A DNA stretch of 54,946 bases, the filler included, from Sphacelaria rigidula (lineage: Eukaryota): assembly GCA_964200075.2 (NCBI GenBank). It is 2 parts of 2 records of this genome, joined end to end, with 100 filler letters (N's around TTAATTAATTAA, not from the genome) between each part and the next. Parts side by side here need not be neighbours in the genome. Positions count along the whole stretch, not along the records: positions 1 to 27,442 come from CAXNAA020000117.1; 1 more part is not named here. One strand, given 5' to 3'. The notes under the pieces were generated by a model. That model searched no databases and was not told where the DNA came from. It saw nothing but the letters and a program-made list of their open reading frames with translations. Below, piece by piece: positions 2,430-27,542 of this stretch. Numbering within the stretch: position 1 is the first letter of the stretch; each line of letters begins with the position of its first letter. Both the position numbers and the translations under genes were made by a program.

Positions 2430-4490
2430 TCATCCATAGTTCTTGATAAAAATACACCTGCTGCTGTGAATATCTCTGTCACAACTGTGCTTGCACTTTG
2501 GGTAGTTGAAAACCTCCTCCGAGGTCATCTTCCAATTGATAAACCCACACTTGTCACACAGCTTTGTTGTCAACTGTTCGGGTACAATTGCGACTCTTTT
2601 CCCGTGGTCATTCGCCGTGCTGATCAATCTCTGTCTGAACTGATAGTGTTTCAGACTAGCATGCAGAAGCTTCTGGTTCCTGTGCGACTTCGTCTTCATC
2701 ACTCCGTTTGACAGTCTGCCGACCATGATGACGTCAAAGGTTTTAACCAGATATAAGCAGACCTTGTTATGCATCTCATCGACCATGTTGGCGATCCTTT
2801 TGGATACCTTGCGCCACCCCTTGGTCAACTTGGACTTGGTCACTTTCAGTTTCCTGAGTCGCTCCCGTTTTTTTATACACCGTGAGAGTTTGCGTCCTGC
2901 TTCTTCTCCGATAAACCCGATGGCGCCATCGGGAGAATAAAACGATCCGAACTTCCGGGACCCCATATCCAAAGAAACAACCCGATGACCTTCAGCTTTC
3001 GGAGCGACAGCTGTTTGCCTGGTCACGGTCGCGTAATAAACCCCCCTGTCTTTGATGATCTCCGTTACAAGGCCGTCGGCCGGCCTCACTTCTTCTCCGA
3101 GAATGATATCGCCATCAAACTCCGTAAACGATAGCTGGAGACGAGAACCCTGTATACGAGAGTCTTTCTTCTGAAGACCGATCCTCTGTTCTTGAATAAA
3201 CTTGCTCCGGAAATGAAGAGAACCCTTTCCACGCGATTCCACACTTTTTTGTGATGTAGCGAACTGATCAACTGCTTTCTGTCTGACGTGCTCTGGTGTC
3301 CTCAAGGTTTTGTTCATCGTCGCACACATGGAACGTTTCCTGATCGCCTTGTCTCGAATTTCAGAAGTCGAAACACCCTCGATAAGCTTGCGAACACACT
3401 CGTTGTAGACCCTGCGGCTGTCGGACATGTACTTCACGAGAGTTTTTTTCTGTTCTTTCGTCGGATACAGCCGAATCTTCTTAGCACGAGTATAATGAGG
3501 CTCGATATCCGAAATTTTGTCTTGGATGACTTTCGTCAAGGCATCCTGCTCCGTGAGAAGCGCTTCCACACTGTCCTTGCTGGTCGGAGAGGGGTCGTCA
3601 AACTCGCGGATCGCTTGGCGGATCGAAATGTATTCGGCCATTTCAGTTTTCGAGAGGTTTTTGAGGAGCTTTTTTTTGTCGATGGAATTATGTGTGCGTG
3701 TTTTCTTGTCCATGGTTCTCTTCATCGTGTTATCATGTATGCTCTGAATCAGTTTGTCCATCCTTTGGTTTAGAAAGCCTAGCAAGTGGCGAATCAGGTG
3801 ATCCGAGCACGGCGAGATCTTGGCAATCCTTAGCTGAACCAGAACCAACTTGAGTTTCGCCGTGTTGAGAGCTCCCCGCTGTATCGCGTTTCCTTTTGCC
3901 GGTACTTCTTTTTCCATAGAGTCTCGAACTGAAAACGTGGATGACGGCCATGAGGTCCTCCATGAGCTCTGTCTCTGGTGAACCGTTTTCGTTTTGATTG
4001 AGAACCACGAGTTCTGTGTTGTTTTCGTCACAGACAAACTGGATAATTTCGAAAGCAAATCGGCACAGTCTGTCTTTGTAGGCAACCATGACGCGGTCGA
4101 CCTGTCCCTGCATGATGTGTCGAAGAAACTTTTTGAAGCCTTTCTTTTTGAAGTTGAGTCCGGATCCTGTGTCAGATAGTATCGATATCCCCGGGCAAGA
4201 ATCTCTGATGAACTGTTCTTGTCTCCCAAGATCCTCTTTCTGTTTAGCGGACGATACCCTTGCGTATCCGATGTCGGTCCGCGATGCCTTCCTTTTATCA
4301 TTCGCGAGACGTCTTGCACAAATTCGTGACTCCTCTGACCGGAGCGCTTGCGTTTGTTTGAAGGTTTCGATGTCGTAAAGACGTTGACCACCCGGGGTTC
4401 TAATCGTTGGTATGGCTTCAAGCTTATCCCATCGCCTGAGGGTGGCGTTGGAGACTCCAAGACATTCGATGGCAGTTGCGGTGTTGACAT
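2430..4490 (-). CDS. tnpB: Fanzor2 / TnpB RNA-guided nuclease. Likely start MEKEVP at 3917 (495 aa); the frame stays open to ATG 4490 (686 aa)
   Basis: OrfB HTH-like KKIRLYPTKEQ..SRRVYN; RuvC-I VSLDMG; RuvC-II VPEQLTTKLCDKCG; RuvC-III DRDIHSSRCI. The second Zn pair reads YPKC. Confidence 0.95.
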   Translation of the reverse strand: MSTPQLPSNVLESPTPPSGDGISLKPYQRLEPRVVNVFTTSKPSNKRKRSGQRSHEFVQDVSRMIKGRHRGPTSDTQGYRPLNRKRILGDKNSSSEILARGYRYYLTQDPDSTSKRKASKSFFDTSCRDRSTASWLPTKTDCADLLSKLSSLSVTKTTQNSWFSIKTKTVHQRQSSWRTSWPSSTFSVRDSMEKEVPAKGNAIQRGALNTAKLKLVLVQLRIAKISPCSDHLIRHLLGFLNQRMDKLIQSIHDNTMKRTMDKKTRTHNSIDKKKLLKNLSKTEMAEYISIRQAIREFDDPSPTSKDSVEALLTEQDALTKVIQDKISDIEPHYTRAKKIRLYPTKEQKKTLVKYMSDSRRVYNECVRKLIEGVSTSEIRDKAIRKRSMCATMNKTLRTPEHVRQKAVDQFATSQKSVESRGKGSLHFRSKFIQEQRIGLQKKDSRIQGSRLQLSFTEFDGDIILGEEVRPADGLVTEIIKDRGVYYATVTRQTAVAPKAEGHRVVSLDMGSRKFGSFYSPDGAIGFIGEEAGRKLSRCIKKRERLRKLKVTKSKLTKGWRKVSKRIANMVDEMHNKVCLYLVKTFDVIMVGRLSNGVMKTKSHRNQKLLHASLKHYQFRQRLISTANDHGKRVAIVPEQLTTKLCDKCGFINWKMTSEEVFNYPKCKHSCDRDIHSSRCIFIKNYG

Positions 4491-4497
4491 ATGTCAT
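3733..4497 (-). CDS. tnpA: IS607 serine recombinase TnpA
   Basis: MerR-like HTH LGVSNATLRRWD..RTPGGQRLY; catalytic GYARVSS; DTGSGLNF; YKDRLCRF; FSSRLYG. Start taken as ATG 4497. Confidence 0.97.
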   Translation of the reverse strand: MTYVNTATAIECLGVSNATLRRWDKLEAIPTIRTPGGQRLYDIETFKQTQALRSEESRICARRLANDKRKASRTDIGYARVSSAKQKEDLGRQEQFIRDSCPGISILSDTGSGLNFKKKGFKKFLRHIMQGQVDRVMVAYKDRLCRFAFEIIQFVCDENNTELVVLNQNENGSPETELMEDLMAVIHVFSSRLYGKRSTGKRKRDTAGSSQHGETQVGSGSAKDCQDLAVLGSPDSPLARLSKPKDGQTDSEHT

Positions 4498-6907: not shown

Positions 6908-7124
6908 TTTGCGGCATTTACTATGTCGTCAATCGAAAGTAGTGGAACGCTTTGATCCTGCCTTTTTTCAGGACCAACCTATGGGCACCTGGCGGGGCTT
7001 CAGATACGGGCAGTCTGGTTCAAGTTTTTAATTTAATGGAGGCGGGTCGCACGATGACCCACTGTTTCCATTATTGTAAAGTTAAGCAATTGGAAAGTTA
7101 AATGTTTCGAAAGCGTAGACAAAA

Positions 7125-8213: not shown

Positions 8214-8219
8214 AACAAT

Positions 8220-10916: not shown

Positions 10917-10960
10917 TCTTCTTTAAGTTGACGGTAATGACTGTTTCTGCTCAGAACAAA
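10831..10960 (+). ncRNA. Putative Fanzor1 omegaRNA overlapping the ORF 3' end and right TIR, with guide from the flank
   Basis: Stem CTAGG..TAGAGAG (10831-10844) with TTTTCTA.CCTAG (10905-10916). Hairpin AGTGTGT-TTAG-ACACACT at 10880-10897. ACCGTC (10845-10850) is complementary to GACGGT (10930-10935). Confidence 0.65.
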
Positions 10961-11422
10961 CTTTCGAGGGGAACGGCACACAGGGCAGGCTCCCGACTCT
11001 AACCACGATCACATTGAAGACAACAAATCGCCTGGCACACGTTGCAATTCGTGTGGTGGTCACGCGTCGTCTTCGCCCGGCACACACAACACGACCGATT
11101 CGAGTCTGATTAGAAAATTCGAAGCCATGTATGTGTGGTAGTCGCGCTCGCCTTCGAAGTTTATTGAAATGGTTGCATTTTTTCAGAACAGCAAACAATC
11201 AATGTCTCCTGGACATGTTATGATTTCTTCTCCTGACGCCTTGCTCCGCAAGCTATCGGAGGCACGCATCAGGCCTGCGATATCTGCTTTGCGACGGAAC
11301 AATGATGCTTTTTTGATGTTCATCTGGTGATCCATACTCAGGACGGCCAGACGCTCGTCCATATAGGCTTGTAGATATTCGGGTATGATTGCCTCTGTCA
11401 TTATGATGTCAGCGTCGTCCAA
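10948..11422 (-). pseudogene. RING-finger-like protein remnant, 3' end interrupted by the IS4 element
   Basis: Minus strand CCVC..HHTNCNVCQAICCLQCDR, then a frameshift, then ACPVCRSP (about 11092-10965). Several stops and shifts upstream. Confidence 0.6.
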
Positions 11423-12213
11423 CGAATGCTCTTTGGAGGTCCTGCATGATCAGCGGCGTGACCATGTTGAGATCACAGCTTTACCCCGCCACAACATTAT
11501 TTAGCACACCAAACATTGGTGGCTTGACCTGTTTTGAAATAGTTTATCTCAATTTTTCAGAAAAAAATAAAAATTATTATCAAGGAATTGAAAAATGAAA
11601 TGATATCAGTTTCGACATCCTCCGGGCAGGTTTGAACCCCTGTTTGCACGGGGGCGAATTTCAAGTCGAGGCCGAATTCCAAAAAACGTCGATACATACG
11701 AGTCTCGCAAAAAACGTCGTTTTTTTGTACTACATGATTGTCCCAGAACTGATCAGTAAATACCGACGATATAGGTGGGATGCGTGTAAAATAAATTGAA
11801 AAAAGCTCGTTGAGCGCAAAAACATATTTTACAAAAAAAACGAAGTCTTGTAAAAACAAACGATCACCCCTCTGAAATATGTGTTGTGTGGTAATCACCC
11901 ATGTGTATTTTGCATACATGAATCATGTACAATTCGTGAATGGGAACAAACAGGCACAAGCCACTCTATTGCGGTGACCCAACAATCTTGTAGATACGAT
12001 CCCGTTTCTTCGCCACTTGCCTTTTGCGAGAAACTAGTGACATTTTTGTGTGCGTTTGTAACAAGCTATTGAGTGTATTCACGACAGACGGTATTACATC
12101 TATGTCGTCCTCTTGAGTTCCGTAAGGCCTCCTCTAAGAGAAGTATGGTGTTCGCGTGTTGCGACCCTATTATTTCTTTTAGCGGTAGCTCAGATGTTCT
12201 GTCCTCGATACCA

Positions 12214-12714
12214 CTAAACCCCACGGCTTTGCAAATAATTTCTGTCGATATCCGTGACCATGTACTGTATGTATTCCTCGCCGTGAGCCCGCTTCCTTTT
12301 GTTTGGTCTGAATTCAGCTAGCTCTTTTTGCATCGTGTATACTCCCGCCTCTAGATACCCCAATTTCCGACGCGTCGTCTCACCGACAAGCTTGTTTTCG
12401 CATTTTTGAAACACATAGAGTGAGTCGCACGGACCTGTGAAATCTGTGTCCACACTCCATTTGGACGGGTGAAATGTTTTCTGTCTATGGCAACCGGTAC
12501 AAATAATTTGGAGGTTGTCTAGGTGCGTCGGCCCCGAATACCTGACCGGTTGTATGTGGTCAATGTCGAAGTCCATGCCGTTGATGGACACTTTCCTTCC
12601 GCATTTCCTGCATTTGTGTTAATCTTGGTCCAAAATCATTTGTTTATCGTTGATATTGGTGAAGGTCGTCCTCTTGATACGACGAAGTTCTTCCTCTGGG
12701 CCAATGTATACCAT
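12214..12714 (-). pseudogene. HNH endonuclease with premature stop
   Basis: ILDQD*HKCRKCG..FDIDHIQP..GPTHLDNLQIICTGCHRQKT. TAA at 12619-12621. Confidence 0.88.
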
Positions 12715-12817
12715 CTTCCACGATTGATCGTCGAAAACCCTGAATTACCTGAACACTATGCTGTTGGATTGTGTGAAGCAGTGGTATACAAGATGAAAAT
12801 ATTTTGATGTGTCAATT

Positions 12818-13066
12818 TCAAGCGCATGCTGTCAAACCAGTCTCTCTCTTTCTTGCCCTCTCCGCTTCATTGTTCGGTCTCGCTCTCGGTTGAACCAGTC
12901 TCATACACCGAGAGTGTAAAGCCATCACCGTACCGAGGTGGCTTTCTGTTTTTGCCATTTCTTTCGCACGGGCACACATTTCCTCAATCTCCTCCAGCAG
13001 TTTCGGGCGTTTCATTTCTTGCATCGCGGCGTGCATGTGTTGCTTGGTCTCGTATACCGCTGGCAT
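12818..13066 (-). CDS. Hypothetical 82-aa helical protein
   Basis: ATG-initiated charged ORF, co-oriented with the HNH gene, no motif. Confidence 0.35.
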   Translation of the reverse strand: MPAVYETKQHMHAAMQEMKRPKLLEEIEEMCARAKEMAKTESHLGTVMALHSRCMRLVQPRARPNNEAERARKRETGLTACA

Positions 13067-13199
13067 TGTGATTTTCGTCGTTTACCGTCTGGCAGTATTT
13101 TTTTTTGGTTGGCTGGGCGGCCAGGCCGAGTGTAGCTACGCGTGCCTGTGCCCGAACCCCACCATTTAAAACATTGATATTTTAAAAAACAAGAAAATC

Positions 13200-14057
13200 A
13201 TGCCGCTCCTCATCCTTGTCGCAAAATAAAAATACATGCGAGACGGTGACGCCGACCTGTTCCAAGGGTGACGGCCCGTTCACGTGTCTCAGTTGTGCCA
13301 AGCCGCTGGTCCTGAGGCAGGGTGAGAAGAAGCGGTGGCATTTCGCGCACCATTCCAAGGATATTAATGACGGGCGTTCTGCCGGTGGGGAGATCTACAT
13401 CCACTTGGCGGCCAAGTTGTTGTTGATTAGGTATATCTCTAGGTTCAAGTTCGCCGCAGAGTGCGGTCGCCTGCGTCACGATCACGAAAAGCAATACCAA
13501 GGATGCACGGCGGTGCAGGAGCATCGTTACGACGGCGTACACTCCGCGGACGTGGCGTGTTGCGTGACGGGAAGTTGGAGGCTATCGTTGGGGTCATGGC
13601 GACGCACAAGATTGAGGGAGAATCCTTGGCGTCCAGATTGGGGTGTGTGGGGGGAGACAATGTGTGGGAGGTGGAAGCAATGGGCGTTTTGAGACAGCAA
13701 AAGGGTCTGTCATTGACGACCGACACCATTCATGTTCCTAGTTTGCTCAAGTTAGAGGACTGTGCCGAATGTGCGCAGGAGAGTTGGGAGGCGCACGAAC
13801 GACGGGAAAAACAGATGGCGGTTGAAAAGCTAGAGTCCGAGGAACGCCGTCGGCGGTTCGAGGAGTCTAGGCGAAAGTCCGATCAAAAGAAGCAGGAAGA
13901 CGAGGAAAAAAGGCAACAGGCCGACACCACCGTGGTCATCATCGACGACAACACCCTCCGGCGCAAGGGCGTGCTGATGAAAAAGTTCTTTCTCAAGCCT
14001 GGCGACAGCATTGATCGTAGCTACGGGTGGATGAAGGCCCCTGAAGCATCCCCCTGA
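13200..14057 (+). pseudogene. CoiA-like Zn-ribbon + PD-(D/E)XK nuclease, frameshifted
   Basis: FTCLSCAKPLVLRQGEKKRWHFAH, GGEIYIHLAAK, QEHRYDGVHSADVA, then a shift to AIVGVMATH..NVWEV. Shifts near 13225 and 13558. Confidence 0.78.
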
Positions 14058-14244
14058 GCCGCTCCCCTTGCGCGCGCCCCCTTCCTTCCATCGGCCAAAT
14101 TACCCACTTCTTCGGCGAGCCGACGGTCTGCGCCAGGGGGACTGAGCGCAACGAAACCATTGCCCCCGAACCGCGCCCCTCTGGTACCGAGTAAGCAATT
14201 TTCCCGATGTGGAATTTTAAATATTAATTGGAACTTAAATAAGA

Positions 14245-14654
14245 ATGCTCTGCCACATCCCCACCGCCCAAACCCCATCGGGTGTGCTAGTGGTCCCCTC
14301 CTGCTCCAAGGCCGAGGCCCCGTTCACGTGCCTGGGGTGCGGCGGTGGCTTGGTGCTGCGGCAAGGCAAAGTCAACATCTAACATTTCGCGCACCGCCAT
14401 AGTTCTCTCGGGTGTTCCGGCGGGGGTGAATCGGCTCAGCACAAGGCGGCAAAGTTGCTGGTTGATAAGTACTGTTCGCGGCTGGTTTTCACGGGTAGAT
14501 GTATCACATCAATCCACGAAATCAGACTGCAGTACACCGACTTGAAGCAAAGCAGGAGTATCGCTACGACACCAATCAAAACTACTCGGCGGACGTAGCC
14601 ATCTTCCAAAATCTCAGCCTTGTTTCTATCGTGGAGGTTCGTGTCTCTCATGCC
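14245..14654 (+). pseudogene. Second CoiA-like paralog, truncated and absent from the ORF track
   Basis: PFTCLGCGGGLVLRQGKVNI*HFAH..GGGESAQHKAAK, then a shift to QEYRYDTNQNYSADVAIF..SIVEVRVSHA. TAA at 14380-14382. Confidence 0.8.
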
Positions 14655-14818
14655 GCTTCGCACTAGTTGTACGGCCCCGTGCCGGGCCTTCATTCAACAG
14701 CAGATGCCTCCCGCTTCGCACTAGTTTTGCGGCCCCATGTCGGGGCTTCATTCAAGAACAGATGCCGCTTCGCACTAGTTCTTACGGCCCCGCTTTAAGC
14801 CCCCGTGCCGGTCCTTCA
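14650..14818. repeat. Three tandem units of about 55 bp
   Basis: CCGCTTCGCACTAGTT..CGGCCCC..CTTCA occurs three times. Confidence 0.9.
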
Positions 14819-14875
14819 GAAAAAAAATGCAAAATTGTAGCCGCTTACGTGCACCACTCCATAATCATAATCATG

Positions 14876-14952
14876 TTCAGGTTCGATTTCAGGTTCGATC
14901 TCAGGTTCGATCTCAGGTTCGATTTCAAGCTCGATCTCAGGCTCGATCTCAG
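14876..14952. repeat. 12-bp minisatellite (YTCAGGTTCGAT), about 6.5 copies
   Basis: Read directly from the sequence. Confidence 0.92.
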
Positions 14953-15974
14953 ATACACTTAAATATTCATCACCTTCCCATCTATAACGCACGCACGCCA
15001 CATATTTCTTCATCGACAGACGCCCCTCCCCATTTGTTTTTTTTGGCCCGTGTCGGACCTTCATCACTACGCTGACCATCGACACCCATGCATGCAAATC
15101 AAATCTTCACATCCTTTCCCTCCCGCCTCCCTCCCTCCCCCCTCCCGGAAGGTGAAATATGTGCACGACGAGGACGACGAACTGGAGGAAGCTCAAACAA
15201 AAAAGGGGAAAGAAAAACAGGAGGGTCGGTGCAGCTGTGGAGGAGGGAAATAAAGCGGCGGTGGAGAAGAAGACGATGATGGAGGATGGCGACCAGGATG
15301 GGGACGGTCGCATGTACCACACAGCCTTTGGAGTGAGGTACAAATCCTTGGACGTCGCCGGTGGCGGCATGTGTGCGCTTCTCGCCCTGATCGCCCTCTA
15401 CATGATCTTCAATGGGGACTCGTACTCGTTGGTTTTCGCGGCCGTCTACGGTGAGATCAAGGACGAGATGAGGGGTTACGTGCAGTGTCTCCGCGGCATC
15501 ATCGTCCACATGTCCGAGGGACGTCTCCCTCATCTCGGAGACGGCGAGGAATCTGCAAAGTTTGAGGATGTGGTGGACAATCCGAACCACGATATCAAGA
15601 CGAAAGCCATGTGGAGGGTGGTGATGCTTGCAGCCCGAGGCTGCTTGGACGGCATCGCACTGAGTCTCCCTGCCGAGTATTTCGGATTGGACGGGTTCAA
15701 AATCGTTAGGGCGAACAGAGACGGACTGGTGGCGTCGTGCGACTTCAAGGGTAAAACCTTGGCGGAAGGGGTTGTCCACCTGGTTCTGTACGATGGGTTC
15801 GGGCACTTCTAGGCTCTTGTTCCGCTGGACACTCCGCCGCAAATGGTGACCGGTGGACATGTAACGCGTGTTTATCAGCAGGGAAAGGGTCGAGGTCTTT
15901 GGTGTCTGCAACGACTGAACACAGCTTATTTTTCTCCTTCATGCCCCCATGTTGGCCAGACCGACCGCGACGCG

Positions 15975-16220
15975 GGGGAGCCTGGTGTAAAACTAACCGG
16001 GATCGCCCCGAAGGTCGCGACTGGTGTCGAGGCCGGGGAGTCTGGTGTGAAGCAGACCGAGAGCGCCCCGGAGGTCGTGGCTGGTGTCGACGGTGTGGAG
16101 CAGACCGAAAGCGTCCCGGAGGTCACGGCTGGTGTCGGCGGTGTGGAGCAGGCCGAGAGCGCCCCGGAGGTCGCGGCTGCTGTCGACGCCGAGGAGCCTG
16201 CTGTGGAGCAGACCGATGGG
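15975..16220 (+). repeat. Coding tandem repeats (GVEQTESAPEVxAGVD), 45-54 bp
   Basis: Visible in the DNA and in ORF 15843..16298. Confidence 0.85.
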
Positions 16221-17084
16221 GACGGGTGGCACGTCGTGGGCGGGAACGGGTTCAAGGTCGGCGTACACAAAGACGAGGTACGTACTGTACTTCTTTGAGT
16301 GTATTTTCAAAAGTATCCGTGGTACGGCGTGGAAGGTAGCAAGACGTGTGCATTCATGTATCGTCAACTCACGCACCATCGGTTTTCTTGTCGTCTGCAA
16401 CAGGAATCGAACCTGCTTCGCTTCGCGAGCGGCAACCAGTTCATTGTACTACGCGACGAGACGGAGGAGGATGATGAGTCATAGAACGGGGAGGAGGCCA
16501 ATGAGGTGTGGGAGAGGGCGGAGACGGACGGGGTGGCGATGGATGCGGAAGACGGAGAAGAGGCCGATGAGACGTGCGGGAGGGTCGACACGGACGGATT
16601 GGCGGAGGATGCGCACCCGAAACCCCGCAACCGGGCTGGGCGCCGGGTGGCTGGTCGGCGCGCAGCTCCGCGCGGCTCAACCCGAGGGAGAGGTGGAAGC
16701 AAGTACCTGAAACGTTGTCCTGCCAGGAATGAACGGGCCCAACGCAAACGTGGGCGCGGACGCGGACGTCGACTCGAACCCCCATGTAGAGCGGGCTTTG
16801 TGCGAGGAGGAGGAGGGCGTTCTCGTCGTGCCCCCGAAAGCCGAAACCGAGACGAGGGGCCGTCTGGAGTTAACCAGCTGGTGAAAACTCCAGCGTACTG
16901 GGAGGGTCTGGTGGGGGGGTATATTGACTCTAGATAGAGGAGAGTGGCTCTGTGGACGCAGGGAGACCTAGACAGGGCAATTAGCGCAATGTGGGAGCGG
17001 CGGGGTCAGGAAGAAAGGCAGCGGTACGAGCCAGCAATAAAGCAAATGCTGGCAGCAGCGCAAAGAGCAGCGAATGGAGAGGCG

Positions 17085-17435
17085 GAACCGGTGGAAGAAC
17101 CGTCGGAAGCAATGGGTGTGTGTGGTGAGCAGCTTTCCCCGGAGGAGGAACCATCGGAAGCAATGGGTGTGGGTGGTGAGCAGCTTCCAACGGAGGCCCA
17201 AGCATCACCCATGGGCGTGGATGGTGGGCAACTCGCGGCGGAGGTGGATGGTGAGCAGCTCGCGGCGGACGTGGGAGGTGAGCAGCTCGCGGCGGACGTG
17301 GATGGTGGGTAGCTTGCACCGGACGTGGATGGTGGGCAGCTCGCGGTGGAGATGGATCGTGGGCAGCTCGCGGCGGAGGTGGAGGCCCAGGTGTTACCAA
17401 TGGAAGAAATGGACGTGGATGGTGAGCAGCTCGAG
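17085..17435 (+). repeat. Coding tandem repeats (EEPSEAMGV x2; 27-bp VDGGQLAAE x about 7)
   Basis: GTGGATGGTGRGCAGCTCGCGGCGGA units. Confidence 0.88.
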
Positions 17436-20400
17436 GAGGAGGAGGAGGCCAAGACACGAGAGGATTCCGATGACACCGAGAGTGAACAGGTGAGTAAACA
17501 CATTGGTTCGTTTTTTTTTACGCTCGGTGCAATGAACCTGGCGAAACGTGGCGAAATGAAGACACGAAGTATTACTTGTAGCCTTAACGCCACCGTTTGT
17601 GTTATTTCTCATAGGAGACCGAGGGGCGGACGCTGCGACGCAGGGGGGGGCTGTAAGATGTCGAAACAAGAGGCTCACTGGAGGGCTGGCGTTGCCGCTG
17701 GGACATGGACGAAAGAGCAGCTGGAGGACAAGTTGAAAAAAAGGCGGGAGAAGGAGGAGAGGCTTCAAAATGAACACGACGAGGCCGATGATGACGCGCC
17801 CTGTGCGGGGTGCAGCGTGTGTTTTGACCGAGATCAACTTACAGCACTCGGAAATGAGGTGAGCGGTTGGGGTATACTTCATTTAAAAAATTTCATGCCA
17901 CCACCCCATCCACGGATGCAGATGAGTTACATCACAACCTGTCCAACCTGTACACTGATGATCCACTTTCTATGCTTTGTTTGGTCTGTATTCTACTGCT
18001 TGTCTTTCACCGAAGCTACGCTGTGCCGGGTGTTTGGCCGATGAACCGGATGAGCACTCGGGGCTCGTGGGTGACGCGGACGCTGCAGAAGGAGAGGTAG
18101 AGAGCGACGTTAACGCGCGTGCCGGGACCACACCTGGTGTACCAGCATCGCCGCAGCAACGTCGTCGTCGGGTCCCCAGCCGAATCCCCAACCGAATCCC
18201 GAAAACTTCGAGCCAGAACGAGGCGCTGGTGTAGCCGAAGGATGAAGAGCAAGCTGAACGAGTTTTTGCCAACTACAATAGAGCAAAGGAAATGGAGCGC
18301 AAACTCACCGCCTCGAGGACCACAGTCAAAGAAGTTCGGAACCTGACCTACCTCGACATCACGACTGCATCAACGTGCGTCGCCAAGGGGTTCCCCGTCG
18401 ATGAAGATACTTGGCTTAAATGTGAGAAGGAAAACTATGGGCTCTACGGGATTAAAACTCGTAGAGAGGGGGTTTCGGGGACCAAGGTTACTTCTGCGAA
18501 CAGCAAAGGGGAGGTCGTGGAAGCAAAGATGGTGAAAGGATACAATACGTTCACCATCGAATGGTCAGATGCCAGGAAGAAAAACAGCGAGTACACTACT
18601 GGAGAAGTGCTTCGCGACCGCGACGATGGGCAGGGCGTGGTGTCACTTGACGAGGCCAAGCAGAGGATGATTTCGTTTCTTCTCGCAGCGCGGTGCATGG
18701 CCGACGTCCAGTTTCATGAATTTATCTCCAACAACGTGAAAGTTCACGATGCAAAAAGCACGCGTCCCCTGAGCGGGAACAAAGCTGATGACATCAAAGA
18801 TGGTAGGGGTCACGCCTGGAAGGAGACGAAGTCAGCTCGCGGGGTCGATATGCTCATGCCGAACGAGATTGATTTGTTAAGGTCGGTAGAGGATCCAGGC
18901 TTGTTGGGGGAGATGGAAGCTCCCGAGTCGTGCTTCAAAATGATGGGGTTGCACGACTACGTCAAGATCGGGCAATTGGGCCTCGTCAACAGCAACGAGG
19001 ATTTCAACTCCAAGCACCTGCCCTTCCTCAACCACTTTGTACGGGGAGCACAAGCATCATTTCGACTGGGTCGGCCTACCAACCTGGCGTCGTCGATGGT
19101 TTTTCTTTCCGTCCACGAGCTCCCTCATGGGATGACGACCACGTCGAATGCAGACGCCAATAAGGTGTGTTTCAACCCAGGAGAAAACATAAAAGATTAC
19201 AGCTTGGGCATGAGGGCGGTGTTGTCTAGGGCAAGAGTGAAAGACTACGGTGGAAGGAGTAAAGTATCGTCTACATGCCAGTGGTTGCAAAGATATCCAC
19301 TATATCGCATTTTGGATCTGTCGCGGGTTGACGGGGGCAGCGTCTGTCCATCAACGGAGCATTCTAATTCGGTTTCCCCTACGCTTCACCACAAAGACAC
19401 GTATTGTGTAGCATCAATGCTTAGCGGCCATCGGATTGCGGACATGGAGGTGTTCTCTTGTATCGAACAAAGATACCTTACTGTGTCGAGGGAAAAGAGG
19501 AACGCGAAGAGTGTGGTAGAGAACGACAACGAGAAGGTTGGGTCCGGGACCAAATGGTGTAAGGGCAGGACCCATTTGGTAGGTAGCCAGGAATGTATCG
19601 ACGGGTATCTTTTCTTGGAGGAACTAGTGTTCCAAAATGGTATAGAGCCGATCATGAACAAGTTGCCCGCTAAAGCTGTCGAGATGTGCAACGATGTGCT
19701 CGAGATGGACCCGATGGAAATTAGAAAGCATAAAAGCGAAGATAAGTTCTGCCCACCTGAGCACCGAGGTCAGATTGAGTCGGCGGTCGATAGCCTCATC
19801 TCAAAGAATTTGACCAGGTTAGATATTTCGTTGTTCAGTCGCGCTTTGTACCTAGCAGATGCTGTACTGACCGCGGCCCTTCGCTCACAAAATGGTCTGG
19901 GTCAGCTTACGAGAGACTTCCATCGAATGAGGCGAAACGACGTCCACGGTAACGAAGTAGCGGTTAGCCGATGTCTTCTGCCCCGATATTTCAAAAACAA
20001 AAAGGCGCTTGAGACTTCCCCTTACGGTATAGTGGTAAACCACACCAAACACGAGAAGTGTGTCGGACCGTACGCGGCAATGGTGGTGATATTGAGAAAG
20101 TTGATGAGACGTCTCCTTCAGGTTGAGGTGGAGAAGAAAAGCGTACAGATACAGGCTGTAGGGGGGGGGCACGGAGGGAGTTGCTGACGTGTACACGCTG
20201 ACTGACCTCTTGGGCCCTTTCGATGAGAATGGTAGGATGTACACGGAAGGTCAGCTACTGGAAATGTTCAAATGGATAGGGGTGCGAGCCATGGGGATTC
20301 CGAGATTCGGCACTCATATCATTCGCACAAACCACGCGACCGCGGTAGCAATGTATTGTGTACGGAATGGTTTACCCCAGGATCATCAAACAGTAAAGGA

Positions 20401-21325
20401 TTTGTTTGCCCTGGGCAGACACGGAGACGGGGTGAGGATTAAGTCGCATTCGCAGGTCAAGGCCAATACACCGGATGCAGGTAGCATCAAAACCATATTG
20501 ATGGTCACGGTTTCTTCTCTTGTATCCCTTGAAAAGGGTGTCGATGCAGTCATCATCTGTGAAGTAGATTGGATGACCTTGCTTTGGATGACATTGTGGA
20601 GATGGGTTGTCCGGGGGTCTTGGCGTTCGAGGATAAGTCTAATGATTCATTGTGCAAACAGCCGGGCATGGGTAGCGTGCTGAGTAAACGTCCGACCGCA
20701 ACGGTGGAGATGGATGATGACGAGAAGGCTCTCGTGAAAAAAGTACGGATGAAGCTCTTGGAAGATCAGTGGGAGAGTTTGTCGCGAGGAGTGTCCAATA
20801 AATGCGGTGATGGGGCTGTTGCGGGGAAGGGCACGGGTTTGAGCGATGTGGATGTGAGTGTGGGCTGTAGATCCGGGGAGAACAAGACGCAGTTTCGGTC
20901 AAGGCTGATGGGGAGGATGAATTCTTTGATTGTAAAATTGTCTCAAGAGACCAAAACTAAGAAAGTCAGAAGGGGCACCGCTGAGTACAACCTGAAGAAC
21001 AGTAGGTATGTCAAAGTTGCTTACGGGGAAGAGGCTCAGAAGTTCTTGTACTCGGAAAAGTACATAGAGCACCATGCCTTTTGCGATGCGTTCTTCGAGG
21101 AATTCAAACAGAACAAAGGGGGGAAGGTGAAGCCTGGGGCGAAGGCGGAAGCTTTCAGGAAGAATGCAGGCATTGTTTGGAAACATTACTGCTGGGAAAA
21201 CAGTAAGACGGAGGACGTAGTGTAGGCGATGGGGGAGGTGGGAGAAGTATTTCTGTGTTATTAATATAAGCCAAAGGACCCGGGAGCTATTCATGACAAC
21301 GCAACATGGCGACTGTCGCAACTAC

Positions 21326-21366
21326 AGCGCACCCATAAGCGCACCCGCAAGCGCACCCGCAAGCGC
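21326..21366. repeat. 12-bp tandem repeat AGCGCACCCGCA, about 3.4 copies
   Basis: Read directly from the sequence. Confidence 0.85.
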
Positions 21367-21513
21367 TATGAGTCTCGCGGGACCCGTGCGGCCTACATAT
21401 ACATACATACTTTGTCAAGTCCCTGGCGCATTTCCCTGGTGCACCCCTGGGAAATCTCTTTGAATGAGAATAGTGTGGTTGGTTCGTTCAACAAATTCAG
21501 TCTGTTTCGCAAC

Positions 21514-22299
21514 ATGGCTTCTCTCACATCCTCGCCCGAAAGCGCACAGACCTCTACAGTGCCGCGAGTGCCAAATTCAAACAAAGTTAACGAGAAGCAA
21601 GGCAGGGATGCACTTGCTCTCCGCGCCCGAGGCGAAATCAAGTGGGCAACCCCTGCAGGCTCGATTGACGTTTTCACGAAGGACGAAGTAATCGAGATTA
21701 AACACTACAAGAACTGGAAGAATGGTGTCGGACAGGTCAAGGCATACGGAGAGGACCACCCCTCACACAAGAAACGTCTCCATCTTTTCGCGCATGAGGG
21801 AGAGAAAGCTTCAAAGTACTTTGAGATGGCCACGAGACTATGTGCGGAGGACGGAATTCGCGTTACATTTGAAGAAGTGGTGGTTGGAAGAAACAACCTA
21901 GGGGTAGACGTGGTGGATGGTTTGGATGTGTTTAGGGTAAACATTGCCACATCCGCGTTTGCCGCTACCGGGGGCGCATTCTACGGTGATCCAGCGTACC
22001 CCATGAACGCAGATGACGTTGCGCTCGCAACAAAGTGGTGGAACGCAAAGATGGAGCGCGAATTGTCCGAGTTTGAAAGAATGAAGGTTAAGCGCGCTCC
22101 TGCTTTCGGGATTGGTGGCGGTGACTCGAAGTGGGTAACTGCGGTCGGAGCTACGGCTGCCCCCGCTGCGATCGGCGAGGCTGTGCGGGCCGGGAAGAGT
22201 GGCGCTTCGCCCGGTGCTGGAGCGGTGGTGGTTCCTGGAAAATGGGGCCCGTACTATAAGGTTGGAGAGTTCATTAACTATAATAGTTTCAATATGTAA
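21514..22299 (+). CDS. PD-(D/E)XK nuclease-domain protein of the type seen in giant-virus KilA-N-associated proteins
   Basis: TPAGSIDVFTKDEVIEIKHYKNWKNGVGQVKAYG..P..KKRLHLF. Intronless; ATG 21514 is in frame with ORF 21412..22299. Confidence 0.8.
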   Translation: MASLTSSPESAQTSTVPRVPNSNKVNEKQGRDALALRARGEIKWATPAGSIDVFTKDEVIEIKHYKNWKNGVGQVKAYGEDHPSHKKRLHLFAHEGEKASKYFEMATRLCAEDGIRVTFEEVVVGRNNLGVDVVDGLDVFRVNIATSAFAATGGAFYGDPAYPMNADDVALATKWWNAKMERELSEFERMKVKRAPAFGIGGGDSKWVTAVGATAAPAAIGEAVRAGKSGASPGAGAVVVPGKWGPYYKVGEFINYNSFNM

Positions 22300-22726
22300 C
22301 AATGGAACTGGAAATGCAGCTCCAACACGCACAAAGTGTGCCGCCGTAAAGTGGTGTGAAACTAATGAGGACACAGGCTTCTGTCAGGGACAGGGGTCAG
22401 TGCCGGGGCAGTTCTAACCCACTGCCAAGGGTTGCTAGGATTGTGGAATGTAGCGAGAAGAGAGGGATAAAGGGAGAGTGGCCCGAGGGGCGAGAGGAGG
22501 GTCGCAAGACCCACCGATTCCCCTCGGTGAATTGCCCTAATTCTCCGCAAGTCATCAGCTCTCGCGGCGCCTTTATTGGTCGACTCTTCCAATGGCCAAT
22601 TGCCTCGGAAGTGTCGTATCCTATCTATACGTGTTATGTGCACAGATGCAAAGGTTTCTATAATCCCGACAGGTGTCCTCCACACTAACCACATACTACT
22701 CTACGTATTAGACTCTTTCGGTGTCA

Positions 22727-22802
22727 AAAAAAAGTTCGTTTTAAGAAAAAAAGTTCGTTTTAAGAAAAAAAGTTCGTTTTAAGAAAAAAAGTCCGTTTTA
22801 AG
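22727..22802. repeat. 19-bp tandem repeat AAAAAAAGTTCGTTTTAAG, 4 copies
   Basis: Read directly from the sequence. Confidence 0.92.
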
Positions 22803-24930
22803 CTTTCAGTTTTAAGAACGTTTCCGAGGACCGAGGAACGGTCCCCACAGTCCCGTTAAAGCAGAAAATGTAGAGACCAAACTCGGCTTTTATTATTTTC
22901 TTTGCGGGCGCGCGAAGCGCGCACGCAAAAAAAAATCATATCGACACCCCCTCGCGTACGAGTCACGGCGCCCCTGTCTCTGGGGGGACAAATTCGAGTT
23001 TTCCGTGTTCGTTCGTTGAGCAACTCTTTCCCTTCCCATTTCCGCTACAGAGCACCAATCGCAAAACTCTAAAGTGCGCAGGAAAAGTAATATAAATGGC
23101 ACGTCAGCGCATTTGTTCTTTTTGAATTTGGTGCCGAGTCGGCAAAGTTATCACGGCATTTGTGGTCTTCCGAAGGGTTTGTTTTTCGAGTGCGCCACCT
23201 CCGGGCGTACGACTTAACGCACCAGCGTAACAGAGGTGAAGATTAGTGTCAGTAGAGTCGCCCGCACCCTTTACTTTCGCGAATGATGCCATACGCGTGG
23301 AGTAAGCGTGAGAATCATGCGACGGCTTTTACCAGAACTCCGCCATACATGTGAGATACCCAGCAGGGCAATGAGGGGTCTGCCTCCGCATTTTTGGCCC
23401 CCCCGGGCACATGTCACCGTGGCTGAGTAGCCCGACACAGCGATCTGCTCGCCCCGACAAGTACGCGGGCGTACAGATACATCACAGCAGGCCGGCCGCG
23501 GAACATTTCTGGGGGTGTTGAGGCAGTGCTGGGCTAGAGAGAGGGGGTCTCGATCAAGCAGATTGGTCTCTGTGCGGCGGATTTTCAGCTGATGAAACAC
23601 AGGCGAAAATTCATCAGTCCTTGTTGTGTGGTCACATCACGAAGGGCACACCATCTCAAAGTGCTTCAGTGCAGACCACGGCTCTACTCTCTACGGCTCC
23701 GAAGGGTTTGGTCCTACTCTTCTCATCATCATTTGCTCTTGCGTGACCGTTTCATGGCCTGTACTGGTCTGGGTGTTGAGAAATCGCAAGACACCACAAC
23801 TTCTAAACAGCTGTTTCTTGCCTGAAAAAGTTCGGCCAGGCGAAGCAGGCTGAAAACAAAAATCGGCCGAAGAATATACCTGCTGCTCGTGGTGAAAACC
23901 GGGGACGGTGTACGGTCAGCCCACCCTTTACCGATCCGCGGAGATGCAGATTAAAATAAAGGGTTACATTTTCTTTGCGCAAAGAAAGTACCTGCAGAGG
24001 GGGCTAGGGGTTTGGGGGCGTTATTGCTTGGCCTACTGCAGGTACTTTCTGTGGGCAAAGAAAATTTAACCCTGTATTTTAACAGCCAACCGGACTGTTA
24101 AAGTTGAAAATTTTCAGAAATAAGAGAAACTTTCAGCTTTAGGCGTCAGCGCAAGAAATCAACTCTATGACTGGCGACGACCCACCCCCCGCTCTCCTGA
24201 TTCTGGCCGAGGAGCGAGAGGTTTGCATGTGTGTGGGGTGCTGCTGGAGGGGAGAGGGCGTGCCTCTGTCGTGGCGATGGACACGATAGAAAAAAAAAGG
24301 CCGCGCACAGAGAGCATGCCGATCAGCACCGCAACACGAACTCTCTCTCGTCGTAGGGATACAGCCGGAGACGAAACCAAGCACAGGAGCCACGTATAGC
24401 TCTCACACGCTTTCTTTGCCGCGATGGTAGATGGCTGATTTAGTTGCTGGTCTTGTTGGAGGGAGGAGAGGGTGGTGCGCGTCTCTCTTCTGTTGTTGCG
24501 CAAAACAGAAAAATAGCAAGCTCTCGATCGATTGCACAACAGGGAAGAGGGAAGCACAAATGCATGTACATCATCCCTTTCGATGCACACGCTTAACCGT
24601 GCTGTCGACCTCACTCGCGTGCTATGTAGCGGTGCCACACAGGGGTGGTGCGAGCTCTGTGGCTGAGGAAAACCTCGAAACATGGTTCTCTATCCTCTGC
24701 GGAGACCTTCTGGGTCTTGAGTGAACACAAATATTGACGCAAATATACCTGCAAGAAGGCGTGCAGGAATTTTCTAGAAAAGTTCTTAAAACGAAAAGCT
24801 TAAAACGGACTCCTTATTTCCAGGTTTGCGACGACGAGTCCGAATTAGTTTATTGACGCAAATATACCTGCAAGAAGGCGTGCAGGAATTTTCTACAAAA
24901 GTTCTTAAAACGAAAAGCTTGAAACGGACT
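22790..24930. mobile_element. Putative non-autonomous TIR element, about 2 kb
   Basis: 22790-22819 matches the reverse complement of 24782-24811 at 28/30, with a second copy at 24901-24930. No transposase or TSD recognised. Confidence 0.5.
23951..24082. mobile_element. 132-bp foldback/MITE-like element
   Basis: 47-bp arms 23951-23997 and 24036-24082, about 43/47 complementary, with TTAA at both ends. Confidence 0.7.
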
Positions 24931-24971
24931 CCTTATTTCCAGGTTTGCGACGACGAGTCCGAATTAGTTTA
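24732..24971. repeat. Near-perfect 119-bp tandem duplication
   Basis: TATTGACGCAAATATACCTGC starts at 24732 and 24851. Confidence 0.95.
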
Positions 24972-25920
24972 ATGTTTTGCCATTTGCAACCGGAGAAGAA
25001 AGTCACTCAGGCGGAGCGCGAGGGGGTGATCGAGATGGCGAGAGCAGTCGGGGAAGCCTTCAAACGGGCAAAGATTAACAAGGCTAATGACAACAATAAG
25101 CTCTACGACTTCATGAGTGGGACGCGTAATTTTGGTTCAAAACTCCCCCTGGTACACAATCTGCCGAACAAAGTAAATTCTGAATTTCCTGAGTTCCTTC
25201 GGGGGTATCTCTACCGCATAATTTTTTTCCGGGGAGGTGTCCACTTTCGGCCCTCCCAACAACACCAAACACAAGGCAACAACAACAAAAGACTCTTCCT
25301 TGCATCCCTGGGGGGGAACAGCTACAGAGGAGCCCGAGATATGGTCTGCGTAGCAGCAGCAGAGGTGCGCGAAGGGGACACGTGTGTCAAGGCACACATG
25401 TCTCCGTTGGGTTTGGCTGGGAAGGTCAGCATTGACTTCGGGAAGATCCGACACAACAACGATCCTCGTGAAAATTGGACGCGTCGGACTGCAAGCGCAA
25501 GGGAGCAGTTGGGGGAAGCGACCAGCCACAGGAAAGCGAGGCAAAGGCAGCATCGGTAGAAGTGGCGCGTCGGCTAGATTCGAAGGCCAAGACACACGCG
25601 CACGTGACGCTGCAAGAGAGATCACAAAGATACAGCAAGCGCTGTTCGGAGATTGCCCAAAAGAGAGAAAATAAATGGAAACTTGGAAAATGGCGGAGAC
25701 AAGAGACACACGTGAACGGAGCGTGGAAGGAACACGGAAGAAGCAGCTACGAAGGATATCTATCAGGTAGAGGACGAGCAGCCAGTCAACATACACATGA
25801 AGGAAGGACGAGGCAGAGTTGGGGAACACCAAGAGAGGAAGAGGCGAAGAATTTGCGTCGGAAGCAAAAAATCGGAGATAGATCCAAGTGCTACTGCTGC
25901 TGTTCGTCGGAGTATCGACG

Positions 25921-27442: not shown

Positions 27443-27542
27443 NNNNNNNNNNNNNNNNNNNNNNNNNNNNNNNNNNNNNNNNNNNNTTAATTAATTAANN
27501 NNNNNNNNNNNNNNNNNNNNNNNNNNNNNNNNNNNNNNNNNN
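27443..27542. other. Artificial scaffold linker (44 N + TTAATTAATTAA + 44 N)
   Basis: Exactly 100 nt, symmetric, with a stop in all six frames. Confidence 0.97.

What the first reader, a model, noticed from the sequence alone, without database searches (positions are those of the whole stretch)
15152..21225. Hidden giant intron-containing tyrosine-recombinase gene fused to an OTU-like protease: candidate new Crypton-like element
Seen: about ten ORF-track fragments join into one gene of roughly 1,900 codons after removing GT-AG introns (16278-16403, 17490-17614, 17859-18015), reading through TAGs (15810, 16482, 16935, 17310, 18232) and deleting one G from runs at 17643-17650 and 20161-20169; one more shift near 20490-20570 is unresolved. 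Splicing joins CAGCSVC with LRCAGC into a Zn finger. The C-terminal part has YR catalytic residues in order: R (ALRSQN, 19882), K (YFKN, 19993), HxxR (20315-20326) and H (20420). Nine residues later, where Tyr is expected, the codon is CAT (20447), one transition from TAT. The N-terminus has OTU-like Cys (15372) and His (15804) motifs. Known: Cryptons are intron-containing YR transposons, OTU domains occur in other transposon classes such as Helitrons, and phaeoviral integrases lack introns. Inference: a decayed copy of a YR element with a deubiquitinase domain, an architecture I do not recognise as described.
Basis: partly seen in the sequence, partly recalled or inferred. Interest (0 to 1): 0.82.

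Follow-up and report, generated by a model that had tools for sequence, protein, structure and literature searches.

The report
Decayed virus-type tyrosine recombinase gene
This is a broken copy of a large brown-alga gene whose product has the fold of a tyrosine recombinase and belongs to a family shared with brown-alga giant viruses, so it is a relic of virus-type integration machinery rather than a new kind of transposon.

Summary
A database gene model from Ectocarpus sp. 12 confirms the three introns. Intact homologues carry Tyr where this copy has His at 20447. An independent read assembly reproduces 10722-22756 without one difference, so the stops and frame shifts are real.

The family is not Crypton-like by any test I could run. 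It includes Feldmannia virus FsV-158 gp150. Its next structural neighbour is FirrV-1-B4, the phaeoviral EsV-1-213-type integrase. The next gene downstream and a TnpB-like ORF also have FsV-158 homologues. The locus is single-copy at high identity, and no element ends or empty site were found.

The OTU call rests on motifs and a language-model lead only; the fold model failed. Intact homologues have GGG, not GDG.

Verdict: a pseudogene of a virus-type YR family with an alga-specific OTU-like extension. New variant of a known kind; moderate interest.

The parts
15276..15845 (+). Exon 1: N-terminal Cys/His domain (OTU-like lead). Cys codon at 15372, His codon at 15804, in-frame TAG at 15810.
   Evidence: Four homologous ORFs (P0158-P0161, 57-71% identity) keep SLDVAGGGMC. 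Three of the four keep GHFKAL; P0159 has lost it through a frame change. Homologues read K where the window has TAG. Atlas features: 28 of 30 named hits fall in the OTU set, score 0.90. No Pfam hit.
15846..15959 (+).
   Evidence: GTGACC...pyrimidine tract...CAG. The ORFs P0158, P0160 and P0161 diverge and stop shortly after the equivalent point. Inferred; no cDNA or gene model covers it.
15960..16277 (+). Exon 2: acidic 48/60-nt coding repeats.
   Evidence: Tandem repeats at 15968-16188. Aligns to the start of P0006.
16278..16403 (+). Intron (126 nt, GTACGT..CAG).
   Evidence: Skipped exactly by gene model P0006. Splice dinucleotides checked.
16404..17489 (+). Exon 3: acidic and basic low-complexity region with 27- and 51-nt repeats. 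In-frame TAG at 16482, 16935 and 17310.
   Evidence: Alignment to P0006 puts E, Y and a repeat-unit Q opposite the three TAGs. Repeats.
17490..17614 (+). Intron (125 nt, GTGAGT..TAG).
   Evidence: P0006 joins ...SEEEA to GGRTLRRRGG across it. Splice sites checked.
17615..17858 (+). Exon 4: basic stretch and first CxxC of the zinc ribbon. Frame change inside the G8 run at 17643-17650.
   Evidence: P0006 RRRGGRKMSKQEAHW aligns across the run only if the frame changes there.
17859..18015 (+). Intron (157 nt, GTGAGC..AAG).
   Evidence: P0006 reads ASLGNE|LRCAGCLEE across it.
18016..19480 (+). Exon 5, first part: second CxxC, in-frame TAG at 18232, and the conserved central region of unknown function (about 450 aa).
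   Evidence: 73% identity to P0006 and 52% to P0002. The central region is shared with FsV-158 gp150. Only weak sub-threshold DUF1918 hits.
19481..20540 (+). Exon 5, tyrosine-recombinase-fold region. R at 19882, K at 19993, H..R at 20315-20326, R/H at 20417-20422, His at 20447 in place of the nucleophile Tyr. Frame change in the G9 run at 20161-20169.
20541..21225 (+). Exon 5, C-terminal tail (about 220 aa, conserved in close homologues). Third frame change at about 20550-20565. Stop TAG at 21223.
   Evidence: The tblastn pieces of P0002 and P0003 change frame between 20539 and 20581. Sequence read.
21511..22299 (+). Neighbouring intact ORF of phaeoviral type. The motif D..E.K..Y suggests a PD-(D/E)xK nuclease; that label is recalled, not tested.
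   Evidence: 50% identity over 96 aa to an FsV-158 ORF, E 6.4e-20. The FsV ORF was read. No Pfam or PHROG hit.
2430..4493 (-). TnpB/Fanzor-like ORF upstream (context, not part of the gene).
   Evidence: Pfam OrfB_IS605, HTH_OrfB_IS605 and Cas12f1-like_TNB. 34% identity to FsV-158 1233-2417, E 2.7e-28.

Best explanation
The + strand of 15276-21225 holds a pseudogene of about 1,800 codons. It belongs to a large, unnamed family of tyrosine-recombinase-fold proteins shared by brown algae and phaeoviruses. The type member is FsV-158 gp150, which its record calls 'unknown'.

This family is a distant sister of the EsV-1-213 / FirrV-1-B4 phaeoviral integrases. Intact members keep the R, K, R and Tyr set. 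By analogy with Xer, Cre and lambda Int, they would cut and rejoin DNA through a 3'-phosphotyrosine link (inferred, not shown).

The algal subfamility to which this copy belongs has spliceosomal introns and an added N-terminal part: a Cys/His domain (probably a giant-virus-type OTU peptidase), acidic repeats and a CxxC..CxxC zinc ribbon.

This copy is dead. It has five in-frame TAGs, three frame changes, and His in place of the nucleophile Tyr.

It sits beside at least two other genes with FsV-158 homologues. It is therefore most likely a relic within a patch of phaeovirus-derived DNA, not a free-standing transposon. That last step is inference.
For: Gene structure and decay. Sequence confirmed by an independent contig with 0 differences over 12,035 nt.

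Family size and membership:
- 221 clusters at 50% identity with E <= 0.001.
- One member is FsV-158 YP_002154772. Profile A2 hits it at E 4.1e-115.

Fold:
- AF2 model pLDDT 92.4, pTM 0.88.
- Foldseek against PDB: the first 19 listed rows (to rank 27) are all tyrosine recombinases, best E 8.4e-4.

Catalytic columns in the 54-row alignment: R 30 of 33, K 33 of 36, second R 45 of 49, Tyr 38 of 44.

Link to phaeoviral integrases:
- BFVD rank 1 is FsV gp150 (E 6.1e-16, TMq 0.73). Rank 2 is FirrV-1-B4 (E 4.5e-6, TMq 0.50). All other rows have E >= 1e-2.
- hhalign of A2 against the FsV-158 674-aa ORF gives 93% probability, E 3.3e-7. That ORF itself has a weak PF00589 match.
- PMC2373305 (passages read) calls EsV-1-213 and FirrV-1-B4 large integrases with a C-terminal YR domain and reports algal homologues.

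Viral neighbourhood.

N-terminal domain: conserved Cys and His motifs and the OTU lead.
Against: - No member of the family reaches any Pfam integrase model: 0 of 54 at E <= 10.
- Profiles A1 and A2 find no recombinase among PDB sequences.
- hhalign against lambda Int and N15 TelN alone is negative.
- The His of HxxR is kept in only 19 of 48 members (Asn in 22). The His nine residues before Tyr is kept in 25 of 46. The active site is therefore atypical, and no activity has been shown.
- The fold was modelled on a homologue (P0002, 52% identical to the window), not on the window's broken copy.
- The viral-patch reading rests on three genes only. Two other ORFs tested had no FsV-158 match. No giant-virus core gene turned up among the 17 window ORFs scanned.
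- FsV-158 has no match to the N-terminal domain or to Pfam OTU.
- The N-terminal fold model is useless (pLDDT 34.4).
Confidence: 0.62

Rival explanations
1. One reading: a decayed copy of an autonomous, intron-bearing YR DNA transposon (Crypton-like). It would move by excision and reintegration catalysed by its own recombinase, with the OTU-like domain as an accessory.
For: - The family is large and diverse: 221 clusters.
- Several paralogues occur in Ectocarpus species at 52-79% identity.
- At least two copies are broken: the window, and P0159 with a frame change.
- The genes carry host-type introns.
- Cryptons are low-copy and lack terminal inverted repeats (recalled knowledge), so the absence of repeats is not decisive.
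Against: - No ends, target-site repeats or empty site were found.
- The whole 12-kb block assembles as one contig at flank depth: 25.8 against 26.9 and 31.7.
- The nearest relatives by sequence and structure are viral proteins.
- The curated Ectocarpus transposon catalogue lists no Crypton. The word occurs 0 times in the main text of PMC12477816. Its supplements were not seen.
- No Crypton or DIRS sequences were available for a tree.
Confidence: 0.2
2. A host gene family captured long ago from a phaeovirus and put to cellular use, for example as a DNA-binding or chromatin protein. This locus would be one dead paralogue, and mobility would play no part.
For: - Introns and alga-specific N-terminal additions.
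- The locus is single-copy.
- A relative about 90% alike, together with matching flanks at 12.9-14.1 kb and 21.4-22.8 kb, lies in a metagenome run (X6).
- PMC11890097 (passages read) reports algal EsV-1-213-like genes outside viral inserts that lack the catalytic site.
- Precedents for tamed YR folds (Ndc10, QRICH1) appear.
Against: The catalytic R, K, R and Tyr are kept in most members of the algal-type clade too, which argues for enzymatic use rather than mere binding. The locus is flanked by virus-type and transposase genes. No expression data: no RNA holder was listed.
Confidence: 0.15
3. The recombinase likeness is a chance arrangement of helices and motifs, and the protein has another function.
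For: No Pfam or PDB sequence hit. Helical models can reach middling Z by chance (note).
Against: - The motifs fall on the expected elements of the model: K between strands 2 and 3, Tyr on the late helix.
- An independent profile link leads to an ORF that has a PF00589 match.
Confidence: 0.03

Closest known systems
FsV-158 gp150 (YP_002154772 / B5LWN9), called 'unknown' or 'uncharacterized protein' in its records
   Same: Same family. Profile E 4.1e-115. It is the best structural match in BFVD (E 6.1e-16, TMq 0.73). It shares the central region and the YR-fold region, and about 24% identity with the window's close homologues.
   Different: - It sits in the other main clade of the family tree, with 100/100 support.
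- No introns are evident.
- No match to the OTU-like domain anywhere in FsV-158.
- The virus gene is intact and keeps Tyr.
EsV-1-213 / FirrV-1-B4 phaeoviral integrases and their algal 'EsV-1-213-like' homologues (Delaroque and Boland 2008, PMC2373305; PMC11890097; PMC13236599)
   Same: Large proteins of about 690-790 aa with a C-terminal tyrosine-recombinase domain. They occur both in phaeoviruses and as extra copies in brown-alga DNA. FirrV-1-B4 is the second-best structural match (E 4.5e-6, 363 columns). The probable FsV-158 counterpart (674-aa ORF) aligns at 93% hhalign probability.
   Different: - Sequence likeness is remote: 10% identity in the structural alignment, and BLASTP finds only a 41-residue stretch around HxxR.
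- FsV-158 carries both types as separate genes.
- No OTU-like domain or introns are reported for the viral integrases in the passages I read.
- Which of the published 'EsV-1-213-like' algal genes, if any, belong to the gp150 type could not be checked.
Xer-type and phage tyrosine recombinases (XerH 5jjv, XerA 5hxy, Cre, lambda Int)
   Different: - No detectable sequence similarity.
- The protein is three to five times longer, with a 450-aa central region of unknown function.
- The HxxR His and the His/Trp before Tyr are poorly kept. An Arg ten residues before Tyr is conserved instead, in 41 of 47 members.
Crypton DNA transposons
   Same: Eukaryotic, intron-bearing genes for a tyrosine recombinase without reverse transcriptase. 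Copies are often few and decayed (recalled knowledge).
   Different: - No termini, target repeats or empty sites were found.
- The nearest kin are viral.
- No tree could be built with Crypton sequences.

Membership tests
Tyrosine recombinase / topoisomerase IB superfamily (fold level) | Catalytic-domain fold | tested here: met
Tyrosine recombinase / topoisomerase IB superfamily (fold level) | Conserved R, K, R and nucleophile Tyr in order | tested here: met
   Family columns: R 30/33, K 33/36, R 45/49, Y 38/44. The window copy itself has His (CAT at 20447) at the Tyr column, so this copy fails although the family passes.
Tyrosine recombinase / topoisomerase IB superfamily (fold level) | Match to Pfam Phage_integrase (PF00589) or a related model | tested here: not met
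   0 of 54 members at E <= 10. None for the window ORFs.
Tyrosine recombinase / topoisomerase IB superfamily (fold level) | DNA cleavage through a 3'-phosphotyrosine link | not testable with these tools
   Needs biochemistry on an intact natural member.
Phaeoviral large integrase family (EsV-1-213 / FirrV-1-B4 type) | Significant similarity to EsV-1-213 or FirrV-1-B4 | tested here: inconclusive
   By structure: FirrV-1-B4 at E 4.5e-6, TMq 0.50. By profile: 93% to the FsV-158 674-aa ORF. Plain sequence similarity is confined to about 40 residues. Best read as a sister family.
Phaeoviral large integrase family (EsV-1-213 / FirrV-1-B4 type) | Presence in phaeovirus genomes | tested here: met
   FsV-158 gp150 is a member. 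Only this one virus record could be searched.
Crypton | Recombinase groups with Crypton clades in a tree | not tested
Crypton | Dispersed copies with shared ends and short target-site repeats, plus empty sites | tested here: not met
   No flanking direct or inverted repeats around 15-22 kb. One contig spans 10722-22756 at flank depth. No reliable joint skips the gene; the only one, X6 8420>22041, has a side of 21 letters. No whole genome was at hand, so diverged copies and their ends were not compared.
Crypton | No reverse transcriptase; introns in the gene | tested here: met
   No RT domain in any ORF of the gene. Three introns confirmed.
OTU cysteine peptidase (PF02338) | Match to the Pfam OTU model | tested here: not met
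   No hit at E <= 1 for the window ORF, nor at E <= 10 for P0158-P0161.
OTU cysteine peptidase (PF02338) | Papain-like fold with Cys at a helix start and His after a late strand | tested here: inconclusive
   The model has pLDDT 34.4 and was not searched. Its secondary-structure order fits (Cys58 at the start of helix 57-70, GHF after strand 203-208) but carries no weight. Atlas features: 28 of 30 named hits fall in the OTU set at 0.90, with 161-163 shared features. The PDB profile's only hit is 6k6l 'pseudo deubiquitinase' at E 1.3, not significant.
OTU cysteine peptidase (PF02338) | Asp three residues before the catalytic Cys (GDGxC). This motif is recalled and is not universal among OTUs. 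| tested here: not met
   All 5 sequences read GGGMC.

The most novel reading that the evidence does not exclude
The algal-type clade may be a still-undescribed class of eukaryotic mobile DNA. It would be a giant-virus integrase lineage that escaped into brown-alga genomes, gained introns and an OTU-type peptidase, and now moves on its own as a YR element. It would resemble Cryptons but have an independent, viral origin. The window copy would be one dead insertion.
Probability: 0.2. Interest if true: 0.8.

Novelty: new variant of a known kind. Interest (0 to 1): 0.45.

Why it matters
Phaeoviruses are the best-studied giant viruses that integrate into a multicellular host. Their integrase has only recently been tied to integration and excision (PMC13236599, passages read).

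This work shows a second recombinase-fold family that no database names. It is present in FsV-158 next to the right end of the record, and it has expanded in brown-alga genomes with introns and an added peptidase-like domain.

That raises three testable questions. Do phaeoviruses use two recombinases? Have brown algae tamed or been colonised by a virus-derived recombinase? What does a deubiquitinase-like domain do on such an enzyme?

For annotation, the family's members, now 'unnamed' or 'unknown', can be labelled as tyrosine-recombinase-fold proteins.

Tried and rejected
- Pfam on all window ORFs of the gene and on 32 homologues: no relevant hit. PHROGs: nothing.
- PDB sequence searches with the 650-aa ORF, A1 and A2: no recombinase.
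- hhalign of A2 against lambda Int and N15 TelN alone: negative. Single-sequence templates, so this is weak evidence.
- tblastn against the phage collection: no match.
- Search for longer fused forms, 1,963-5,000 aa: none scored. Weak evidence.
- IMG/VR scans with A1, P0138 and A5 found only FsV-158. A4 was too diverse to search with.
- Both metagenome scans (A1, A3) found nothing.
- Is FsV gp150 the viral protelomerase? No. PF16684 matches a different FsV gene at about 54 kb.
- FsV-158 has no match to the N-terminal domain, to Pfam OTU, or to window ORFs 13186-13692 and 5507-6460.
- The N-terminal fold model failed (pLDDT 34.4), so no fold search was made with it.
- Sequencing runs: no RNA holder listed, so nothing can be said on expression.
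- Run X5 (share 0.42) looked like a possible empty site. It is only thinly covered, and its pieces match with 0 differences.
- The idea that TAG is read as sense was dropped. The gene's own terminal stop is TAG, and homologues carry ordinary sense codons at the five places.

Full report
**1. What is in the sequence**

The + strand between 15.2 and 21.2 kb holds a chain of open frames that together read as one gene. Every coordinate in the finding is correct.
- TAG stands at 15810, 16482, 16935, 17310 and 18232.
- The G8 run is at 17643-17650 and the G9 run at 20161-20169.
- The Cys codon is at 15372 and the His codon at 15804.
- R is at 19882, K at 19993, H..R at 20315-20326, H at 20420 and CAT at 20447.

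The three introns start GT and end AG. An NCBI gene model from Ectocarpus sp. 12 (P0006, 73% identical in the shared exon) skips them exactly. In that alignment the in-frame TAGs stand opposite ordinary sense codons (E, Y, Q, V). The TAG at 15810 stands opposite K in four other homologues.

The reading frame changes inside both G runs.

I add one probable intron, 15846-15959 (114 nt, in frame). Three homologous first-exon ORFs run to a stop just after that point. Without it the reading has about 1,808 codons.

**2. The breaks are real**

A Logan contig from a run of another study covers 10722-22756 with no difference and no gap (run X2). A protein from a further assembly (P0001) ends in the same shifted frame. 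So the locus is a pseudogene, not an assembly artefact. All five internal stops are TAG.

**3. The family**

The 650-aa ORF finds brown-alga proteins of 900-1,120 aa at 52-58% identity. A profile of five of them finds 221 clusters at 50% identity. None has a relevant Pfam domain.

The close homologues read ...ARHG......FYT... where the window reads ...GRHG......SHS...

Across 54 aligned members the conservation is:
- first Arg: 30 of 33
- Lys: 33 of 36
- second Arg: 45 of 49
- Tyr: 38 of 44
- His of HxxR: only 19 of 48 (Asn in 22)
- His nine residues before Tyr: 25 of 46
- Arg ten residues before Tyr: 41 of 47

**4. The fold**

The part of P0002 equivalent to about 19.5-20.5 kb (residues 518-878) was modelled with the 54-row alignment. 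The model has pLDDT 92.4 and pTM 0.88.
- Foldseek against the PDB lists tyrosine recombinases in its first 19 rows, down to rank 27. They include the S. aureus integrase, XerA, XerH, Cre/Tre and the Tn1549 integrase; the best E is 8.4e-4.
- In the model the Lys lies between the second and third strands and the Tyr on a late helix, as in known recombinases.

The recombinase call is therefore sound at fold level. Sequence methods alone do not see it.

**5. Whose recombinase**

One family member is FsV-158 gp150 from Feldmannia species virus, which its record calls 'unknown'. Its gene lies about 1.1-3.7 kb from the right end of the virus record. The open frame and the homology reach about 130 residues upstream of the annotated start.

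In a tree of the catalytic region the family splits with 100/100 support. One clade of 9 rows holds the virus protein. The other, of 25 rows, holds the window's relatives. Only two rows carry a known origin, so 'viral-type' and 'algal-type' are working labels.

FsV-158 has two more genes of this superfamily:
- a protelomerase at about 54 kb (PF16684, E 5.5e-19);
- a 674-aa ORF at about 14-16 kb with a weak Phage_integrase match (E 0.002).

The family profile aligns to that second ORF at 93% hhalign probability (E 3.3e-7, 196 columns).

Among predicted viral structures, the model's best match is gp150 (E 6.1e-16, TMq 0.73). The second is FirrV-1-B4 (E 4.5e-6, TMq 0.50, 363 columns). Ordinary phage integrases and nudivirus VLF-1 follow at E 1e-2 or worse.

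FirrV-1-B4 and EsV-1-213 are the 'large putative integrases' of phaeoviruses. Delaroque and Boland (2008) described algal homologues of them (PMC2373305, passages read). Later work reports more EsV-1-213-like genes outside viral inserts (PMC11890097, passages read) and ties the viral enzyme to integration at CC sites (PMC13236599, passages read).

I read the window's family as a sister of that integrase family. I infer, from length, position and the Pfam match, that the 674-aa FsV ORF is the B4/213 counterpart. I could not check this against the EsV-1-213 sequence.

**6. The N-terminal domain**

Four homologous ORFs (57-71% identical) and the window share SLDVAGGGMC, and three of the four share GHFKAL. 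The predicted GDG is not there.

A second paralogous gene model (P0008) runs from the His box through acidic and zinc-ribbon parts into the family core. So the fusion is not peculiar to this locus.

Pfam and the PDB give nothing significant; the only PDB hit is 6k6l 'pseudo deubiquitinase' at E 1.3. The fold model failed (pLDDT 34.4).

A protein-language-model comparison puts 28 of 30 named neighbours in the OTU set, mostly from giant viruses, at score 0.90. That is a lead, not proof. I call the domain OTU-like, unverified.

**7. Context and copy number**

The intact ORF at 21511-22299, just downstream, is 50% identical to part of an FsV-158 gene (E 6.4e-20). The TnpB-like ORF at 2430-4493 matches the FsV-158 element at 1.2-2.9 kb (E 2.7e-28). 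A DDE transposase and a second TnpB-like ORF lie between them. Two other ORFs had no FsV-158 match, and no giant-virus core gene was seen.

No direct or inverted repeats bracket the gene. The block 10722-22756 is one contig at the depth of its flanks: 25.8 against 26.9 and 31.7. True repeats nearby reach about 1,000. A metagenome run holds a relative about 90% alike, including both flanks. No empty site was seen.

**8. Verdict**

The gene is a dead member of a phaeovirus-type tyrosine-recombinase-fold family, carrying an alga-specific extension with an OTU-like domain. It most likely lies in a patch of virus-derived DNA.

The Crypton reading is not excluded, because Cryptons are few in copy and lack terminal repeats (recalled knowledge). 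But it has no positive support here.

What seems new is the recognition of the gp150-type clade as recombinase-fold, its spread in algal genomes, and the OTU-like fusion. I found none of these in the papers that my searches returned. Supplements were closed.

Noticed in passing
L003:1381-3876 (-), i.e. FsV-158 gp150: The annotated virus protein has 620 aa, but the open frame has 831 codons. Homology to relative P0099 begins at residue 82 of that frame, about 130 residues before the annotated start. The upstream part is an acidic repeat like the one in the window's gene. The virus gene is probably annotated too short.
   Followed up: partly
window 15810, 16482, 16935, 17310, 18232: All five internal stops of the pseudogene are TAG. 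Four lie opposite K, E, Y or Q codons in homologues, one substitution away. The fifth lies opposite Val, two substitutions away. This may only reflect the GC-rich, GAG/CAG/AAG-rich codon use, but the uniformity is striking.
   Followed up: partly
window 2430-4493 (-), 7119-8213 (+), 8214-10916 (+): Two TnpB/Fanzor-like ORFs (OrfB_IS605, Cas12f1-like TNB) flank an IS4-type DDE transposase ORF. The first is 34% identical to the TnpB-like gene at the left end of FsV-158.
   Followed up: partly
window 13186-14057 (+) and 14290-14400 (+): Two copies of a Cys-rich motif (PFTCLxCxxxLVLRQG...HFAH) lie in overlapping frames. They look like a frame-shifted nuclease-type gene (CoiA-like by recall). No Pfam, PHROG or FsV-158 match.
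   Followed up: partly
window 22790-24930: 35-nt inverted repeats about 2 kb apart (22790-22824 against 24777-24811 and 24897-24930), with a 19-nt tandem array beside them. They look like the ends of a small non-autonomous transposon. The bin 24764-25427 has about 1,000-fold contig depth in two runs, so it is a high-copy repeat.
   Followed up: no
FsV-158 record (G001): about 14-16 kb, about 54 kb, about 151-153.5 kb: The virus carries three separate genes of the tyrosine-recombinase superfamily: a 674-aa integrase-like ORF, a protelomerase, and gp150.
   Followed up: partly
P0014, P0077, P0061: Other family members carry different N-terminal additions: an EsV-1-7 cysteine-rich motif in P0014 and P0077, and a PHD finger with C-terminal TPR repeats in P0061. 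P0061 may be a chimeric gene call. The N-terminal module of this family seems exchangeable.
   Followed up: no
window 27443-27542: Two runs of 44 N separated by 12 bases: masked or unresolved sequence inside a high-copy region.
   Followed up: no
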